A stretch of 64,000 bases of DNA from a virus, in the IMG/VR virus record IMGVR_UViG_3300031519_000002. One strand, 5' to 3'. Under the pieces are notes generated by a model. That model had not been told where the DNA came from and did not search any database. It saw only the letters and a list, made by a program, of their open reading frames with translations. The translations under genes were made by a program, and so were the position numbers. Shown piece after piece: positions 23,134-38,897 of this stretch (within the stretch, counting starts at the first letter, position 1; each line of letters begins with the position of its first letter).

Positions 23134-23751
23134 TTAAGATGCTTGTGCGTCAACTACAACACCACCAGTTTCAGTAGCCGCTTTAGTTGCGACACCAACA
23201 CTACCGTATGTAGTAAATCCACTACCGTCTACGCCTGATAATTCAAATGTGTTAGTTGCTTTGTTTGCTACTGTGTATGCAGTTTCAATGTTAAGCTCTA
23301 CCATTCCAACTACACCGCGGATAGATACTTTATCTCCGTTGCTGAAGCCGTGTCCTGTTGCTGTAATAACAACTGGATCTGCCGCCGTAGCACCTGAAAT
23401 AACTTTTTCAACTGCGGCCGAAGTACCTGTAGCTGTTCTTGCCCACTTGTGATTAGATGCACCTTCAAGTTGCATTTTTCTGTTCATTAGTTTAGTAACT
23501 TGCTTAGTAACACCGTCACTGTCAGTTACGTTAATGCAGAATTCACCAGCGCCTAATCCGCCAATTGATTTGTTAACTAGTGTAACAGTTTCTGTTTTAG
23601 ATCCATCAGTTACAATAAATTTGTTTGTTGATCTTTGTGACACAATATGTGACTCAGTAGTAATTTCCCCGCCAGCCGCAAATTTAACTGCTGTTACTTG
23701 AATTTTACCTGCTCCATCACCGATGTGCTTTTTATTAATTGGTCTTCCCAT
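23134..23751 (-). CDS. putative head decoration/structural protein with FCCH-like beta domain
   Basis: Likely start is MGRPINK at 23751 (AAGGAG upstream), not 23802; ISGATAADPVVITATGHGFSNGDKVSI motif; directly downstream of capsid gene. Confidence 0.6.
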   Translation of the reverse strand: MGRPINKKHIGDGAGKIQVTAVKFAAGGEITTESHIVSQRSTNKFIVTDGSKTETVTLVNKSIGGLGAGEFCINVTDSDGVTKQVTKLMNRKMQLEGASNHKWARTATGTSAAVEKVISGATAADPVVITATGHGFSNGDKVSIRGVVGMVELNIETAYTVANKATNTFELSGVDGSGFTTYGSVGVATKAATETGGVVVDAQAS

Positions 23752-23837
23752 TTGTTTTCTCCTTATGTAAGACGTTCTAGGTCTACGCTGTGGGTACAGC
23801 ATAAGTCCTCATCATTGAGGTTCTCTCTATGACAATG
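23752..23837 (-). ncRNA. candidate structured 5' leader RNA
   Basis: Hairpins CCTCA-ATGA-TGAGG and TTATGCTGT-ACCC-ACAGCGTAG between late promoter and Shine-Dalgarno. Confidence 0.45.
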
Positions 23838-33983: not shown

Positions 33984-34829
33984 TTAGAGTTCTTCGCCGC
34001 CTTTGTAAACTGTATACCCGGCTTTCTTAACTGCCGCAATTTCTTTGTTTACATTTGGTGCTTTTTTACCCTTAGGCGCTTTTGCTTTTGCTTGTGTAGC
34101 ATTATCTGCACTACTTGAGTCTGGTGCATCAGCATAAGCACTTTTTTCAGCACCCTTACCAGCGTTTGCGGCCATACCTTGTTGTACAAACTTCTTAATA
34201 GCTTTCATTACCATAGTTTTATCAAGTACTGCATCAGCTTCCATAATTGAGGCTTCACTATACATACTTGCGCCTAACTTTGTAAACTTTCCAGCTTTAC
34301 TACGTCCTACAGTAACTTTACTTGGATCAACGATTGGTTCACCGGCTCCAGTTTTACCGATACCAGTGTCTTGAGGAGTAACTCGTTGCTTTAATGCCTT
34401 AGCCGCACTAGCTACTTTACTAGCACCACTCTTTGCTACGCCTGCAACAGCTTTTGAACCTGCCGCAACTGCACCGCCTGCTACTGCCGCGCCTTTAGCT
34501 ACTTTTTTACCAGCTTTAGCGGCTTTCCTGCTAAAACTTGGATCTGAATTAATATAAGCCATTACAGCTTTTGGTGAACTAACAAAGCCTTTGTTAACTA
34601 AAAATTTACCTAGTGCTTGTGCTGTCATTTTTCCAGTTGGAGAGTTCTTTGAAATAGCATAAAAGTCTTTAAAAATGTTTTTTGCTTCACGTTCAACCTC
34701 TACATCTAACTGTGCGGCTTTACCACTAGCTGTGTTCTTGCCCAATGTACGTTTTGCAAATCGCAATGGTCCTTCGTCAACTGATGTGTCAATTTTTTTA
34801 GATTCAGTTAATATGTCAAATACTTTCAT
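33984..34829 (-). CDS. basic Lys/Ala-rich protein, candidate internal head protein
   Basis: 281 aa; N-terminus MKVFDILTE; own late promoter CATAAATA at 34858-34851. Confidence 0.6.
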   Translation of the reverse strand: MKVFDILTESKKIDTSVDEGPLRFAKRTLGKNTASGKAAQLDVEVEREAKNIFKDFYAISKNSPTGKMTAQALGKFLVNKGFVSSPKAVMAYINSDPSFSRKAAKAGKKVAKGAAVAGGAVAAGSKAVAGVAKSGASKVASAAKALKQRVTPQDTGIGKTGAGEPIVDPSKVTVGRSKAGKFTKLGASMYSEASIMEADAVLDKTMVMKAIKKFVQQGMAANAGKGAEKSAYADAPDSSSADNATQAKAKAPKGKKAPNVNKEIAAVKKAGYTVYKGGEEL

Positions 34830-34940
34830 GTGTTCGCTCCTGATTATTAATATTTATGCTTTCCAAACAATTATCATCGTTAAACGAGTATCATCAATAA
34901 GAATAATTAAAGTTTGCTTTAATAATATATTTATTGTTTA

Positions 34941-35051
34941 TGCGTTAACTTCGTTAACACAAGTTATCGCTAACGCTCAAACTACATATACTTCGTATAA
35001 GTTAAATGATTAATATGATATTATAATAGCATTATTACGAATGTAATAATG
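34941..35051 (-). other. cluster of small hairpins in AT-rich DNA (possible origin/ssDNA signal)
   Basis: GTTAAC-GAA-GTTAAC (34944-34958), TATAC-GAA-GTATA (34987-34999), CATTATTAC-4-GTAATAATG (35030-35051). Confidence 0.45.
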
Positions 35052-35055
35052 TTTT

Positions 35056-35467
35056 AACTTCATGTAGATTGTTTTAGTCAGACGGAACCTGTTACGGCCC
35101 CGTCGTCTTTGAAGAAAAACTTCATGTGAGTTCGTCACAGCCAAGACATTGGAAATAGGTATTTGTTTATACACAAGTTTGATGGGCTCTGATCTTTCCC
35201 AACCTACATCGACATTATGTAACATAAAGGATACATTAAGCTAGTTAATGCAATCTCTATAGTACAATATTCCCTCGCTTCGTTCCTGGTGCTAAAGGGT
35301 TTTTACAAACTATGTTGTGTTTTTCAACTGCCAACAAGCAATCTATATCAACCAGTGAGCCCAATTTGTTTGGTGGCTTCCTACCTCTGGGTAGTCGATC
35401 AATATGTACGTGTGCTTCTATACGAGAGCTTTTTCCACAGCGGTATTACTAAACTGGCCCGCCAACC
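35056..35467 (-). ncRNA. candidate large structured non-coding RNA
   Basis: About 410 nt without a credible ORF; several long-range helices whose G-U pairs only work on the minus strand; see findings. Confidence 0.6.
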
Positions 35468-35902
35468 TTATGTGTTGGAATGTTTTGCCTGTAAGTGTTC
35501 TTTAAGAATTTTTGATCCGCCAACTCTAACATTAATAATACCATTGTAGTATTGATCTGTTTCGAGTACTCTGCGTTCAAACTGCTCTCGTGCCTCTAAG
35601 TAACTTGCTATGCCTCTGCTAGGACAAATATGAATAATTTCTCTTATAAAATTATCTTCGCCTAACTCTAAAACGTCTGCATTAAGTCTGTCACTGGAAC
35701 CGTAATAGGTTTGCCAATCACTTTCTTTAGTGCTACGTCTTTTGTTTTTTTTGCCTTTGAGTGGTTGTTTTGTTACTTTAAATTTTGCTAGTTTTTTGCC
35801 TACGTACATCATGCCATTGGATTTATTTGTTATCAAGTATACAAAAGCTTCACAACCTTCTGGTAGTTCGTCTATTGTGTTACCCTGATAAGTCCATTGC
35901 AT
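35468..35902 (-). CDS. GIY-YIG-like endonuclease (single domain)
   Basis: Likely start MQWTYQG at 35902; AFVYLITN...MYVGKK, YYGSS, YLEAREQ, YYNG motifs. Confidence 0.75.
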   Translation of the reverse strand: MQWTYQGNTIDELPEGCEAFVYLITNKSNGMMYVGKKLAKFKVTKQPLKGKKNKRRSTKESDWQTYYGSSDRLNADVLELGEDNFIREIIHICPSRGIASYLEAREQFERRVLETDQYYNGIINVRVGGSKILKEHLQAKHSNT

Positions 35903-35933
35903 CAAGTACTTACCGTTGCCTGTGTTATTATGC

Positions 35934-36122
35934 CTAAGTCTTGGAATTATGCTTGTCGTGTATCTCATCCATACGAAGTTTGGCAAGAGAGCGTATCTCT
36001 CTTAACCATCTTCTTGACTCTCTATGAGTCCGTACAGAGTTTCTTGCCTCAAACTTTTCGTTTGCCTTAAAATAAGCCATATAAGCCTTAGTTAATTTGT
36101 CGTGTGTATCGTCGTCATTCAT
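35934..36122 (-). CDS. small basic helical protein (possibly Hc1/histone-H1-like family)
   Basis: 62 aa, start overlaps gp46 end; R/K-rich C-terminal helix. Confidence 0.5.
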   Translation of the reverse strand: MNDDDTHDKLTKAYMAYFKANEKFEARNSVRTHRESRRWLREIRSLAKLRMDEIHDKHNSKT

Positions 36123-37890
36123 TGTGTACTTCTACATCGTTCTCATAATTTGTAAATCCGTTTTCTTTGATTACTTTAAGAACATGTGTAACTCTTCCTA
36201 CTAATTCATCTTTGTGTGAGATAAGATAAACGTTTTTGTCACGTTCTCTCCCCATTTTCTTAAGAACACTGAGTGCATTTTCAACGCCTGCTGTGTCCAT
36301 ACCGCTATCAATCAGCTCGTCGATAAACAACAAGTTAATGTTTTGATATAGACTTTCCCAAACATCACGGAATGCAAAGCTCATACCAAGTATAAGTCTG
36401 TTACGTTCGCCTCTTGACAAGTTATCAAAGTCTAAATCTTGTCCTAGCTGTGTGATCTCAACGTTCAAATCGTTTTGGAATACAACTTGATGTGGTAATC
36501 CTAGCTTATCAAGATAGTTAGTAAGTCTGTTGTTTAAGTATGCTAAATTCTGATCAATAATCTTCTTACGAATAAAGCTATCTTTGTTAGTTAACAGTTT
36601 TAACAAGAAGTCTTGATGATCTTTAAGACTTGTTAAGTCATTAACAACTGACCAATTAATTTCCTGCATAGCACTATTGTTTAGTTCGTCAATTTGTGCT
36701 TGATACGGATCAGCATCGTTTTCTTTACTAGATAATGCTTGCTTCAATCCATCAACATTTTGACGATGCTCGTATGCTTCCTTAGCAGTTTCGTAAAACG
36801 TAGTAGGTTTGCCGTTAATGTCACCAATTTCTCCAAGTGCTACTGTTACGCTAGTAACCTTAGTTGCAATCTCTGCTTGATATGCAATAGCATCAGCAAG
36901 TTCTTTAGATTTACGCTCTGCAATCTCTGCTTTTTTATCTGCATGTAGTTCTTGACCACAGGTATAACACGTTGCATCATCTAAATTTACAATGTCTTGT
37001 TTTGCTTTTTCAACAGACTTATCAGCACGTACTAGTGCAGGTTCTAGTGTACTAAGTTCTTTTTTAAGACCCATTATAGCATTGTTATGTTCTGACCAAT
37101 TTGATAATTTTTCATGCAGATCTAGTTCAGTATCGATGTCTAAATGTTCTAGTTGATCAATTCCTGTTTGCAACTTAATGACGTCTTGATCTTTTTTAGC
37201 AATCCATGCACGTTGGGTACGTTGTAAACTTTCAACAGTTCCGCCAATCTTTTCATTAGCACTTTGAATAGCATTAATCTTTATAGTTTCTTCTTGAATA
37301 GAATCTTTTGTTTGTCTTACTCGCTCTTTAAGACTATCTGCCTTTTCACTCAATATAGTAATACCGAGTAACTGTTCAATAATGTCTTTTTGATCGTTAA
37401 CTCGCATACTCAAGAAAGGTTCGGTGTATGTATTAAGTGCAACAATGTGTTTAAACATGTTGTGAGTCATTCCCAGCAAGTAACTAATTTCTTCTTGTGT
37501 TTTACGACTGTCGCCCTGTGACTCGTCTGACATTTCTTGCTCTTGACCATTAACAAAGAACCGTAACACATTAGGTGAACGACCTCGTTCAATTTTATAC
37601 TGTTTGTTATCTTTCTCAAAAGATAGTGTAACAAGCATACCTTTGTTGTTAGTTTTATTAATTAGGTTGTTGCGCTTGATGTTTGTTAAAGCAAGGCCGT
37701 ATAATGCATACGAAAGTGCGTTAATGATGGTAGTTTTACCAGTGCCATTACGACTTCCGCTGTCATCACCGCCTTGGTCTAAGTTTTCACCTAATACAAG
37801 TGTTAGCTGTTGCTTATCAAAAGAAACTGCCTGGGTTTGATTGCCCACACTCATAAAATTCTTAACTGTAAGATCTTTAAACTTTATCAT
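36115..37890 (-). CDS. gp46: recombination endonuclease ATPase subunit (Rad50/SbcC-like)
   Basis: Walker A NGTGKT, zinc hook CYTC, signature LSRGE, Walker B LLFIDE, ISH. Confidence 0.95.
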   Translation of the reverse strand: MIKFKDLTVKNFMSVGNQTQAVSFDKQQLTLVLGENLDQGGDDSGSRNGTGKTTIINALSYALYGLALTNIKRNNLINKTNNKGMLVTLSFEKDNKQYKIERGRSPNVLRFFVNGQEQEMSDESQGDSRKTQEEISYLLGMTHNMFKHIVALNTYTEPFLSMRVNDQKDIIEQLLGITILSEKADSLKERVRQTKDSIQEETIKINAIQSANEKIGGTVESLQRTQRAWIAKKDQDVIKLQTGIDQLEHLDIDTELDLHEKLSNWSEHNNAIMGLKKELSTLEPALVRADKSVEKAKQDIVNLDDATCYTCGQELHADKKAEIAERKSKELADAIAYQAEIATKVTSVTVALGEIGDINGKPTTFYETAKEAYEHRQNVDGLKQALSSKENDADPYQAQIDELNNSAMQEINWSVVNDLTSLKDHQDFLLKLLTNKDSFIRKKIIDQNLAYLNNRLTNYLDKLGLPHQVVFQNDLNVEITQLGQDLDFDNLSRGERNRLILGMSFAFRDVWESLYQNINLLFIDELIDSGMDTAGVENALSVLKKMGRERDKNVYLISHKDELVGRVTHVLKVIKENGFTNYENDVEVHNE

Positions 37891-38897
37891 AGTTCTTCAT
37901 ATATTCCTAATAATAGTTTCTTGTCGTAGCTTTCTGTGTCGATTGCAGATATTTCCTTTGTAACAATCTGATCCACACTTTCAAATGTAGTAATATCAAT
38001 GTCGGTATGTATTTCATCATCCTTTTGACTAGGAATAAGTGTAATCTCTCGACAGTCGTAATCGTTGATAAACGTTTCTTTAATAAAACTTGCTTCTTCG
38101 TAACTAATCGGTAAGTCAAGTGTTACTCTCAAGTACATTTTAGATTTTAACAACGTGTCTTTTTGATCTAACAGTTGGCTAAGTTTAACAGTACGATACT
38201 TAGGACAGTCGATCCAATTAAGATATTCAGGCTCTTTGTTGTTTTCTTTGTCAAGTATCATCATGCCACGTTCGTCATCCCACGCATCTGCATAGTTGTG
38301 CGGAAAAGCATTACCAATATAATGAACTTGACCTTGTACTTGCCGTTTATGAAAGTGTCCACTAAACACATAGTCTTGATGTTTAAAATGTGATGCTTGC
38401 AGTTCTCCGTGATCGGGCATTTGCACCATTGCGTTCATATAGAAGCTAGGAAGTTCAAAATGACCAAACATATACTTTGTTTTGATATTAGACATATTCT
38501 TCCACTCATCGCCTACTAACCACGGAACAAGTGCAACGTCATCTTCAACGAGTATCTCGTCAATATATGTAATGCCCGGAATATGTTTTCCAAACTCTAT
38601 ACTGTAAACATCTCGCTTGTCTTTATAATATAAATCGTGATTACCTGCAAAGAAGTAAAACTTCTCAAAAGCCGCTCCTAGCTTTTCAAGACACCTAGTA
38701 GTTGAATCTAGTGTTTGCACGTTAATAGTGTTTCTATTATGATGCCAGTCACCACAAAAAATACCAGTTTCGCAACCGTTAGCTTTTGCTTGTGCAATAA
38801 ACCAATCTACAAATTCTTCACAGTCTTGCAGATGAAGTCGACTATTTGACTTTAACCCAAGGTGTATGTCAGTAAATACTGCCGCTTTTTTAAACAT
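37887..38897 (-). CDS. gp47: recombination endonuclease nuclease subunit (Mre11/SbcD-like)
   Basis: DIH, GDWHH, GNHD, GHFE, SGHFH metallophosphoesterase motifs. Confidence 0.95.
   Translation of the reverse strand: MFKKAAVFTDIHLGLKSNSRLHLQDCEEFVDWFIAQAKANGCETGIFCGDWHHNRNTINVQTLDSTTRCLEKLGAAFEKFYFFAGNHDLYYKDKRDVYSIEFGKHIPGITYIDEILVEDDVALVPWLVGDEWKNMSNIKTKYMFGHFELPSFYMNAMVQMPDHGELQASHFKHQDYVFSGHFHKRQVQGQVHYIGNAFPHNYADAWDDERGMMILDKENNKEPEYLNWIDCPKYRTVKLSQLLDQKDTLLKSKMYLRVTLDLPISYEEASFIKETFINDYDCREITLIPSQKDDEIHTDIDITTFESVDQIVTKEISAIDTESYDKKLLLGIYEEL

What the first reader, a model, noticed from the sequence alone, without database searches (positions are those of the whole stretch)
35056..35902. 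Large pseudoknotted ncRNA candidate directly behind a stand-alone GIY-YIG nuclease gene
Seen: about 410 nt after the nuclease stop codon lack a credible ORF yet are rich in pairing on the minus strand. Long-range helix ATGTAGGTTG (35209-35200)/CAATCTACAT (35071-35062). Crossing helix TGGGCTC..TGGTT (from 35363)/GATCAGAGCCCA (35194-35183), which makes a pseudoknot. Hairpins GACGGGGCC-GTAACA-GGTTCCGTC (35104-35081), CTACC-CAGA-GGTAG (35394-35381), GTGA/TCAC and TGAAG/CTTCA enclosed by GTCTT/AAGAC, plus a long irregular stem at about 35270-35214. A 10-nt direct repeat ACATGAAGTT occurs at 35127-35118 and 35065-35056. The G-U pairs fix the orientation as co-directional with the nuclease, which is a bare catalytic domain with a basic loop (KQPLKGKKNKRR) and no evident DNA-recognition domain. 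Inference, two options: a nuclease-RNA ribonucleoprotein (scaffold or guide, by analogy with HEARO/OMEGA RNAs), or a structured primer RNA for an R-loop origin at the adjacent hairpin cluster, next to gp46/47. I cannot assign it to a known family.
Basis: partly seen in the sequence, partly recalled or inferred. Interest (0 to 1): 0.85.

Follow-up and report, generated by a model that had tools for sequence, protein, structure and literature searches.

The report
Twin-box phage RNA behind small nuclease
The gene-free 440 bases after a small DNA-cutting-enzyme gene of this uncultured T4-like phage encode a real, knotted non-coding RNA. It is a divergent, full-length relative of the orphan Polynucleobacter-1 motif, it always travels with a small nuclease gene, and it shows the same 6-letter word twice to a reader that is still unknown.

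Summary
Window 35470-35030 (minus strand) is a structured RNA, co-directional with a 144-aa SegE-type GIY-YIG nuclease (35902-35468) and ending in a UUCG-capped terminator hairpin. Single-sequence folding energy is not above chance (z -1.44). Across 92 relatives, however, at least 10 helices carry compensatory changes (covariation 0.219 against 0.115 shuffled, 0/500).

The 10-nt direct repeat is family-wide. Its 6-nt core is identical in both copies in 181/181 non-redundant loci, with 9 different words and at least 20 joint changes. I found no complementary partner in cis.

Every locus sampled for this RNA type and its closest relative (135/135, 111/111, 3 MAG contigs) has the nuclease just upstream. 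In a more distant type, 10 loci carry an unrelated PD-(D/E)XK nuclease in its place. Nuclease homologues without the RNA are common in cultured phages.

Rfam 15 gives no hit. Weinberg 2010's own alignment nevertheless shows that Polynucleobacter-1 (RF01718) is the 5' part of this superfamily and lies behind PSSM2_218, a homologue of this nuclease.

A guide-RNA or RNP role is neither shown nor excluded, and an origin role has no support here. This scan has noted the same family before in at least 33 other genomes. Function is unknown, so I class it as a new variant of a known orphan RNA.

The parts
37887..38897 (-). gp47-like (Mre11/SbcD-type) nuclease subunit gene, first gene of the neighbourhood
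Evidence: ORF list.
36115..37890 (-). gp46-like Rad50/SbcC-type ATPase gene
   Evidence: Pfam AAA_23, SMC_N and a weak Rad50 zinc hook. It lies upstream of the module in most related loci.
35934..36122 (-). 62-aa basic small ORF between gp46 and the nuclease
   Evidence: Conserved in related loci. No Pfam or PHROG hit. The protein at the same position in distant loci is Hc1-like (PF07432), but no similarity to the window's ORF is detectable.
35468..35902 (-). SegE-type GIY-YIG nuclease, 144 aa, catalytic domain only
   Evidence: PF19835 E 3.5e-32. phrog_447 matched almost end to end, E 4e-37. GIY/YIG, Arg, Glu and Asn motifs are invariant in 149 relatives. 41% identical to P-SSM2 PSSM2_218.
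35030..35470 (-). Twin-box structured RNA (type A), from the nuclease stop codon to the terminator hairpin
   Evidence: Conserved at 68-90% identity directly behind the nuclease. Covariation test on 92 sequences. No Rfam hit.
35345..35464 (-). 5' domain: helices 35462-35459/35443-35440, 35439-35436/35412-35409, 35429-35425/35418-35414, 35405-35397/35353-35345, and hairpin 35394-35381
   Evidence: All five carry pairs changed on both sides. The architecture resembles the published Polynucleobacter-1 alignment by eye. Some relatives replace it with shorter alternative 5' domains.
35171..35320 (-). Long-range closing helix (35310-35306/35181-35177, plus 35320-35315/35176-35171) enclosing helix 35299-35295/35276-35272 and the variable hairpin 35270-35214
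   Evidence: In 35310-35306/35181-35177 all 5 pairs covary and 99.5% are paired. Helix 35299/35272: 6 of 7 pairs covary. Base of the variable hairpin: 5 of 5 pairs covary.
35183..35207 (-). Near-invariant core GTAGGTTGGGAAAG(G/A)TCAGAGCCCA. Its GTAGGTTG 'hub' can pair either with ACCTAY (35160-35155) or with CAATCTAC (35071-35064). G(G/A)TCA (35194-35190) pairs with TGACY (35080-35076).
   Evidence: The exact 25-mer is present in more than 120 IMG/VR contigs. Hub with ACCTAY: 99.6% paired, one compensatory change. Hub with CAATCTAC: 8 pairs at least 97% paired. GGTCA/TGACY: 99.8% paired, GU 79 / GC 13.
35120..35127 (-). Box 1 (ACATGAAG), preceded by the conserved ACTC
35081..35104 (-). 9-bp hairpin between the boxes
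   Evidence: 99.3% paired in 92 sequences.
35058..35065 (-). Box 2 (ACATGAAG), preceded by the conserved ATCT
   Evidence: The 6-nt core is identical to box 1 in 181/181 non-redundant loci, with 9 words and at least 20 joint changes.
35030..35052 (-). AT-rich hairpin with an AUUC/UUCG-type loop, the likely 3' end (terminator) of the RNA
   Evidence: A hairpin is present at this place in relatives, with many different stems (GTGC-TTCG-GCAC, ACAATATTAC-TTCG-GTAATATTGT and others). MI pairs 35049/35032 and 35045/35036.

Best explanation
What is shown: window 35470-35030 (minus strand) is a gene for a roughly 440-nt, multiply pseudoknotted non-coding RNA. It is a divergent full-length member ('type A') of a phage RNA superfamily, of which only the 5' third has been catalogued, in freshwater and Polynucleobacter relatives, as Polynucleobacter-1 (RF01718). 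In this window it starts at the stop codon of a minimal GIY-YIG nuclease gene. No promoter-like site was found at or near its start, so it is most likely made as the 3' end of the gp47-gp46-small ORF-nuclease transcript. It ends at its own hairpin terminator.

What is inferred, at about 35-40%: the RNA is a working partner of the small nuclease encoded in front of it, not a passive UTR. It folds into a compact core and exposes two single-stranded arms. Each arm has a conserved flank (ACTC or ATCT) followed by the same lineage-specific 6-nt word. The two arms would be read by base pairing with a nucleic acid in trans, or by two copies of one factor. That would position or restrain a nuclease that has one active site and no DNA-binding domain, next to the gp46/47 end-processing machinery.

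For: Structure: 77.9% of cells paired against 35-42% with slid partners; 702 doubly changed cells against 257 shuffled; covariation 0.219 against 0.115 (0/500). The RNA core is more conserved than the protein: the 25-mer is exact in contigs whose nuclease is only 49-89% identical to the window's.

Linkage: the nuclease lies directly upstream on the same strand in 135/135 type A loci, 111/111 type B loci, 3/3 MAG contigs and 99 type C loci. In a gp46-anchored sample, 41 loci have nuclease plus type A RNA, 4 have nuclease plus type B RNA, 7 end too soon after the nuclease to tell, and 1 lacks both. None has the RNA alone.

Where the GIY-YIG gene is missing in type C, a different small nuclease (PF24608, PD-(D/E)XK) occupies the slot.

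The nuclease has no DNA-binding domain and its catalytic motifs are invariant.

Twin boxes: 181/181 identical cores with at least 20 joint changes.

Published support for the gene link: Polynucleobacter-1 RNAs lie downstream of PSSM2_218-like genes, and PSSM2_218 is a homologue of this nuclease.
Against: Nuclease homologues without the RNA are common in cultured phages. Some of them sit beside tRNA genes or nrdB.

Two unrelated nuclease folds in front of the same RNA argue against a conserved, specific protein-RNA interface.

No column of the nuclease gene explains more than 44% of the box entropy. Columns of the small-ORF alignment reach about 60%, but they are highly variable, so that figure is inflated.

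No complement of the box exists in cis from -1500 to +900, in the 64-kb window, or in a 149-kb relative.

Some type C relatives have their own sigma-70-like promoter between nuclease and RNA, so the RNA can be an independent gene.

Confidence: 0.4

Rival explanations
1. The RNA is an autonomous ncRNA gene with a job unrelated to the nuclease. The small nucleases in front of it are Seg-like selfish or free-standing endonucleases that settle beside highly conserved RNA genes because those offer invariant target sites, as T4 SegB does in the tRNA cluster.
For: The Pfam family is SegE-type. Two unrelated nuclease families occupy the same slot. Homologues in S-RIM8 and S-SCSM1 lie next to tRNA genes. 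The nuclease occurs in many other contexts. Some type C RNAs have their own promoter.
Against: Occupancy is close to total rather than sporadic: no RNA-only locus among about 290 type A and B loci, and 1 of 46 gp46-anchored loci lacks both parts together. The nuclease sits at a fixed syntenic position and is under clear purifying selection (56-88% identity to the window's in 149 relatives, catalytic motifs invariant).
Confidence: 0.25
2. The RNA is a cis-acting 3' element of the nuclease mRNA that controls stability, timing or translation of a potentially self-damaging nuclease. The boxes would be processing or binding sites.
For: The RNA begins at, or a few bases before, the nuclease stop codon. 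No promoter-like site was found at or near its start in this window. It ends in a terminator hairpin. Any nuclease type in that slot would need such control.
Against: 440 nt with at least 10 covarying helices and pseudoknots is far more than known 3' stabilisers need. Relatives carry an independent promoter. Homologous nucleases do without it. No pairing to the nuclease start region was found.
Confidence: 0.12
3. The RNA is a structured primer or R-loop-forming RNA of a replication origin next to gp46/47.
For: An AT-rich tract and small hairpins follow the RNA (34941-35029). ColE1 RNA II shows that a large folded RNA can prime replication (established knowledge).
Against: The cumulative GC-skew minimum lies near 40 kb, where transcription direction switches, not at 35 kb. 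The RNA ends in a terminator-like hairpin. Nothing in an R-loop model explains strict nuclease linkage or two identical boxes.
Confidence: 0.08
4. It is a self-processing ribozyme or intron-like remnant. The GTAGGTTG hub acts as an internal guide that docks either of two similar sites (AACTCAC|box 1 and AATCTAC|box 2), so the two boxes would be equivalent reaction sites.
For: The hub can pair with three similar segments: ACCTAC, AACTCAC and AATCTAC. GIY-YIG genes classically accompany group I introns. The repeated flank-plus-box layout also appears in types B and C.
Against: No Rfam match to group I, GIR1 or any ribozyme at E up to 10. No exons and no conserved terminal G (boxes with ATA). The hub complements only the flank and 2 nt of the box, so it does not explain box identity. 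No experimental data.
Confidence: 0.08

Closest known systems
Polynucleobacter-1 RNA motif (Rfam RF01718; Weinberg et al. 2010, Genome Biol 11:R31, PMC2864571)
   Same: Same gene context: the paper says most examples lie downstream of genes related to P-SSM2 PSSM2_218, which is a 41%-identical homologue of this nuclease. The published alignment's 3' flanks carry the same tail: ACUC-AGCGAAAG, a hairpin, then AUCU-AGCGAAAG. The 5' domain has a similar helix order: an AGC...GCAC hairpin, a helix, then a CUACCC hairpin (by eye).
   Different: The Rfam model (141 positions) does not match this window or 5 related records (E above 10 for the window, above 1 for the records). It covers only the 5' part. 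The pseudoknotted core, the twin boxes and the nuclease identity of the neighbouring gene were not described. The paper classed it as a possible cis-regulator and found no example in an isolated phage.
HEARO / OMEGA RNAs (IscB and TnpB omega RNAs)
   Same: A large structured RNA encoded next to a small nuclease gene in a mobile or viral context.
   Different: No Rfam HEARO match. The nuclease is GIY-YIG (or PD-(D/E)XK), not RuvC/HNH. There are no transposon ends. There is no 15-20-nt guide, only two identical 6-8-nt words. The RNA lies 3' of the gene and has its own terminator.
GOLLD and ROOL large ornate phage or prophage RNAs
   Same: Several-hundred-nt, heavily pseudoknotted RNAs carried by phages, with unknown biochemical function.
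   Different: No sequence or structure match (Rfam). Smaller. Strict linkage to a nuclease gene and twin boxes are not features of those families.
T4 Seg-type free-standing GIY-YIG homing endonucleases (SegB in the tRNA cluster, SegE)
   Same: Pfam SegE_GIY-YIG catalytic domain; a location beside structured RNA genes.
   Different: No C-terminal DNA-binding domain (144 aa against about 200-220). Nearly universal and syntenic rather than sporadic. Homing was not tested.

Membership tests
Polynucleobacter-1 RNA (RF01718) | Match to the Rfam covariance model at or above 37 bits | tested here: not met
   No hit at E up to 10 on 35020-35520 and 34700-36200. No hit at E up to 1 in 5 related records. 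No gathering-level hit in 18 loci.
Polynucleobacter-1 RNA (RF01718) | Location downstream of a PSSM2_218 / GOS11034-family gene | tested here: met
   Stated in Additional file 1 of PMC2864571. PSSM2_218 against the window nuclease: 41% identity, E 4e-23.
Polynucleobacter-1 RNA (RF01718) | Shared full-length architecture (5' motif followed by a tail with two identical boxes after ACUC and AUCU) | tested here: inconclusive
   The twin-box tail is visible in the published flanks and in type C loci. Homology of the window's 5' domain rests on similarity by eye only.
Group I intron with GIY-YIG homing endonuclease | Group I core (P3-P9), flanking exons, terminal G | tested here: not met
   No Intron_gpI or GIR1 match at E up to 10. 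No interrupted gene. Box variants with ATA lack the G.
HEARO / OMEGA guide RNA | Rfam HEARO match; IscB or TnpB neighbour; a variable guide of 15 nt or more at one end | tested here: not met
   No Rfam match. The neighbour is GIY-YIG. The only variable words are 6-8 nt.
GOLLD / ROOL | Match to the Rfam models | tested here: not met
Type III toxin-antitoxin RNA (ToxI-like) | Tandem repeats of the whole antitoxin unit upstream of an endoribonuclease toxin | tested here: not met
   Only a 10-nt word is repeated, 62 nt apart. The RNA lies downstream of a DNase-family gene.
Seg-type free-standing homing endonuclease | GIY-YIG catalytic domain of the SegE type | tested here: met
   PF19835 E 3.5e-32.
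Seg-type free-standing homing endonuclease | Sporadic presence among close relatives; separate DNA-binding domain | tested here: not met
   Present in 45 of 46 informative gp46-anchored loci. The Pfam domain matches nearly the whole protein.
T4-type R-loop replication origin | Promoter plus unwinding element giving a persistent RNA-DNA hybrid; a strand-bias switch | tested here: inconclusive
   No skew switch at the locus. R-loop formation cannot be tested with these tools.

The most novel reading that the evidence does not exclude
The RNA and the small nuclease form a new kind of RNA-programmed nuclease module in T4-like phages. A compact RNA scaffold shows two copies of a lineage-specific 6-8-nt word, and these position two copies of a domain-less nuclease (GIY-YIG, or interchangeably PD-(D/E)XK) on matching DNA. 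The purpose would be, for example, to tell foreign or host DNA from the phage's own, ahead of gp46/47 resection.
Probability: 0.12. Interest if true: 0.9.

Novelty: new variant of a known kind. Interest (0 to 1): 0.62.

Why it matters
Large, intricately folded RNAs of unknown function are rare, and past examples led to new biochemistry.

It sits beside the recombination nuclease genes and is more conserved than the protein gene next to it. It also has an unusual evolutionary signature: two short words that always change together. That means something reads the same code twice.

Showing that the 2010 orphan motif Polynucleobacter-1 is only the front third of this RNA, and that its unnamed neighbour gene is a minimal nuclease, turns an old catalogue entry into a testable two-part system.

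Tried and rejected
- **Rfam.** Whole window at gathering thresholds, and the region at E up to 10 in two sizes: nothing on the RNA. 18 related loci: nothing. RF01718 on 5 records: nothing.
- **tRNA or tmRNA likeness.** None.
- **Folding energy alone.** Not significant.
- **Third strand complementary to the boxes.** A strict 6-mer complement from -1500 to +900 shows no consistent site. MI of the box columns against all RNA columns finds only the other box. G-U-tolerant pairing between the boxes is no better than shuffles, mean p 0.81. A whole-RNA G-U-tolerant scan against control words gives only a promiscuous TTGTGT site, 46 against 33. Extra same-sense copies downstream occur at chance level, 10 against 9.3. 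Upstream copies are more frequent than chance (31 against 16.5) and cluster in the gp46 coding sequence; I took them as conserved coding sequence.
- **'Anti-box' hairpin.** Seen in L024-type relatives, but it did not generalise in 84 type C tails.
- **Box word elsewhere.** The 64-kb window holds only the two boxes and no complement. A 149-kb relative has no complement.
- **Protein reader.** No nuclease column predicts the box. The small-ORF columns are too variable to interpret.
- **Coding reading.** The ORFs are not conserved and the box spacing varies from 55 to 68 nt, not in multiples of three.
- **Degraded C-terminal domain of the nuclease.** Rejected. The 144-148-aa length is the family norm (PHROG 447, P-SSM2, Melnitz) and the region evolves by compensatory pair changes.
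- **PDB.** A sequence search with the nuclease found nothing meaningful.
- **Cultured phages.** None carries the type A RNA at 65% identity or more.
- **Earlier scan claim.** The claim that the RNA also occurs in bacterial islands and tiny phages without any nuclease was not reproduced in the collections I sampled. I did not search it exhaustively.
Full report
**Setting.** The window is part of a T4-like phage genome. On the minus strand lie, in order:
- a gp47-like gene (38897-37887);
- a gp46-like gene (37890-36115; AAA_23 / SMC_N / Rad50 hook);
- a 62-aa basic ORF (36122-35934);
- a 144-aa GIY-YIG nuclease (ATG 35902, stop 35470-35468; Pfam SegE_GIY-YIG E 3.5e-32; phrog_447 matched almost end to end);
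- about 440 nt without a conserved ORF;
- an AT-rich tract;
- a 281-aa ORF starting at 34829.

The 10-nt direct repeat is exactly at 35127-35118 and 35065-35056.

The single-sequence fold is not better than chance. The minus strand gives -104.4 kcal/mol, z -1.44; the plus strand gives z +0.54. The proof comes from comparison.

The nuclease has hundreds of relatives in IMG/VR. In many of them the stretch right after the stop codon is 68-90% identical to the window's, and the alignments show textbook compensatory changes. On a 92-sequence alignment (A1) my consensus structure scores as follows:
- 77.9% of cells paired, against 35-42% when partners are slid;
- 702 doubly changed cells, against 257 in shuffles;
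- covariation 0.219 against 0.115 (0/500).

Helices with pairs changed on both sides are:
- 35462-35459/35443-35440;
- 35439-35436/35412-35409;
- 35429-35425/35418-35414;
- 35405-35397/35353-35345;
- hairpin 35394-35381;
- 35343-35339/35330-35326;
- the long-range 35310-35306/35181-35177 (5/5 pairs, 99.5% paired);
- 35299-35295/35276-35272;
- the base of the variable hairpin 35270-35214;
- the terminal hairpin 35052-35030, by MI and by eye, because MAFFT mis-registers it.

The 9-bp hairpin 35104-35081 is 99.3% paired. Many pairs alternate between G-U and A-U or G-C. That fixes the strand as the nuclease strand.

- Family-supported: CTACC/GGTAG, the 9-bp hairpin, and the long irregular stem. 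The last is a variable-length insertion point; relatives have GC-GTAA-GC there.
- The long helix 35209-35200/35071-35062 has 8 inner pairs at least 97% paired but no compensatory change. It shares GTAGG with a local alternative, GTAGGT/ACCTAY (35207-35202/35160-35155), which is 99.6% paired and is compensated in L002 and L004 (UA 90 / GC 2). The two cannot form together. By eye the long helix is also kept in the more distant types. Either the RNA switches between them or one of them is spurious.
- TGGGCTC/GAGCCCA is invariant wherever it exists, so it cannot be tested.
- The TGGTT/GATCA extension is wrong, because TGGTT belongs to the covarying helix with ATATTGATC.
- TGAAG/CTTCA is specific to this window.
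- GTGA/TCAC is weak.
- A further likely tertiary helix is G(G/A)TCA (35194-35190) with TGACY (35080-35076): 99.8% paired, GU 79 / GC 13.

**The twin boxes.** The direct repeat is the most unusual feature. Each copy follows a conserved flank, ACTC for box 1 and ATCT for box 2.

In type A the 6-mers agree in 126/128 loci across six variants. MI shows that the box columns correlate only with each other.

After adding a second RNA type and removing redundancy, the 6-nt cores are identical in 181/181 loci. There are 9 different words: ACATGA, GAATAA, GCATGA, ACATAA, GAATGA, ACGTGA, GCATAA, GTATGA and AGATGA. On the nuclease-gene tree there are at least 20 parsimony changes, and every one hits both boxes together. 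Shuffled identity averages 82.5 of 181, with a maximum of 97. Identity fades at positions 7-8.

I looked for what reads the word and found nothing:
- no complement inside the RNA, between the boxes, in the operon, in the 64-kb window or in a 149-kb relative;
- an 'anti-box' hairpin seen in one distant subtype does not generalise;
- no column of the nuclease gene predicts the word.

The word always fits R-N-R-T-R-A, so it contains TGA or TAA overlapping ATG, ATA or GTG. I cannot say whether that matters.

**Linkage with the nuclease.**
- A scan for the invariant 25-mer returned at least 120 contigs. All 135 loci with enough upstream sequence have the nuclease immediately upstream on the same strand, with protein identity down to 49%.
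- An unbiased sample anchored on gp46 gave 41 loci with nuclease plus type A RNA, and 4 with the nuclease plus a different-looking RNA that has the same tail ('type B', with boxes such as GAATAAT). Seven more loci end too soon after the nuclease to tell. One locus lacks the small ORF, the nuclease and the RNA together. None has the RNA alone.
- A type B pattern scan gave 111/111 with the nuclease upstream.
- Three hits in prokaryotic MAGs are the same phage module.
- In a third, more distant type ('type C', core GGTACMGCGTAACCGCC), 99 loci have the GIY-YIG gene. In 10 loci a PD-(D/E)XK endonuclease (PF24608) stands in its place, and in 7 of those it is preceded by an Hc1-like small protein (PF07432). 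Four further loci have unclear contexts.

The reverse does not hold. The nuclease family is widespread without any such RNA. tblastn finds it in 760 phage records, mostly cyanophages, plus Felixounavirus and Erwinia phages. In the records I opened (Melnitz, P-SSM2, S-RIM8, MED4-213, S-SCSM1) and in loci L029 and L049, no RNA follows it. It sometimes lies beside tRNA genes or nrdB. Its catalytic motifs are invariant in 149 relatives.

**Relation to known families.** Rfam 15 finds nothing here. Earlier reports of this scan pointed to Polynucleobacter-1, and I checked that lead in the primary source.
- Additional file 1 of Weinberg et al. 2010 says the motif lies mostly downstream of genes related to P-SSM2 PSSM2_218.
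- PSSM2_218 is a 145-aa homologue of the window's nuclease: 41% identity, E 4e-23.
- The published Stockholm file shows, in the 3' flanks of the Polynucleobacter and metagenome examples, the type C core and a twin-box tail: ACUC-AGCGAAAG, a hairpin, then AUCU-AGCGAAAG.

So RF01718 is the 5' part of the same superfamily. The window's RNA is a divergent member that the model does not reach. I therefore file it as related to Polynucleobacter-1, not as a member by the model's own threshold. No other paper in the library mentions the motif or a GIY-YIG-linked RNA.

**What it most likely is and does.**

Shown: a real, terminator-ended, pseudoknotted RNA that is co-oriented and co-inherited with a small nuclease gene beside gp46/47, and that carries two co-evolving words.

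Inferred: I give about 0.4 to a functional partnership with the nuclease. In that reading the RNA is a scaffold, targeting device or restraint for an enzyme that has one active site and no DNA-binding domain, and the two boxes are read in trans.
- For: near-total linkage across three RNA types, and retention of 'a nuclease' in that slot.
- Against: the many RNA-less homologues, the exchange of nuclease fold, and the lack of protein-box covariation.

Rivals:
- An autonomous RNA gene beside which Seg-like nucleases settle (0.25). This explains the two nuclease families and the tRNA-adjacent homologues, but not the near-100% occupancy.
- A cis-acting 3' control element (0.12).
- An origin primer (0.08). 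The skew minimum lies near 40 kb, not here.
- A guide-docking ribozyme or intron remnant (0.08).

**Verdict.** The RNA is a new, full-length and divergent variant of a known orphan motif. Its function is unknown, and the twin-box signature is striking and unexplained. The same family has already been noted by this scan in at least 33 other genomes. My results agree on the reality of the RNA, the twin boxes and the Polynucleobacter-1 link. They differ from the earlier reports that called the RNA independent of the nuclease: in every collection I sampled it is preceded by a nuclease gene, apart from four type C loci whose context is unclear.

Noticed in passing
window 23749-23821 (-): Rfam gathering-level match to the freshwater-2 RNA motif (RF02980, 58.4 bits). 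It is the only Rfam hit in the 64-kb window.
   Followed up: no
window 34980-34963 (-), and the same place in many related loci: A conserved motif TTGAGCG-NN-AGCGA-(A/T)AAC lies roughly 50-150 nt downstream of the RNA's terminator hairpin, about 50 nt in this window. It is kept in type A loci and in the type B loci inspected. In the window it is followed by a GTTAAC-GAA-GTTAAC hairpin (34958-34944). It could be a promoter or regulatory site for the downstream gene.
   Followed up: partly
window 35047-35020 (-): A sigma-70-like promoter match (ATTACA-16-TATAAT, 10/12) overlaps the RNA's terminal hairpin and points towards the 281-aa ORF.
   Followed up: no
L495:10285-10797 and 9 other type C loci (L448, L451, L456, L464, L468, L481, L486, L511, L522): A PD-(D/E)XK endonuclease (PF24608) replaces the GIY-YIG nuclease directly upstream of the related RNA. 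This is a non-orthologous swap of the nuclease in an otherwise syntenic module.
   Followed up: partly
L495:10037-10285; window 35934-36122: The small ORF between gp46 and the nuclease is a histone-H1-like Hc1 protein (PF07432, E 7.7e-11) in distant loci. The window's 62-aa ORF holds the same position but shows no detectable similarity.
   Followed up: partly
L024, L039, L075 (just after the nuclease stop): Near-consensus sigma-70 promoters (TTGACA-17-TATACT, TTGACA-N17-TATAAC) lie between the nuclease and the type C RNA, so in those phages the RNA looks like an independent transcription unit.
   Followed up: no
L266:3100-5596: One close gp46 relative lacks the small ORF, the nuclease and the RNA altogether. 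gp46 is followed directly by three other ORFs (326, 261 and 244 aa).
   Followed up: no
window 35470-35500 and related loci: The sequence AGGCAA...ACAGCACATAAGG is conserved at the nucleotide level whether it lies inside the nuclease reading frame (as in the window) or after its stop codon (in relatives). The RNA's 5' boundary may therefore lie inside the nuclease gene.
   Followed up: no
L404 (S-RIM8) and L406 (S-SCSM1): Cyanophage homologues of the nuclease, mis-annotated 'NAD synthetase', lie next to tRNA genes. In S-SCSM1 the gene lies right after nrdA-nrdB, which is the position of denA (endonuclease II) in T4.
   Followed up: no
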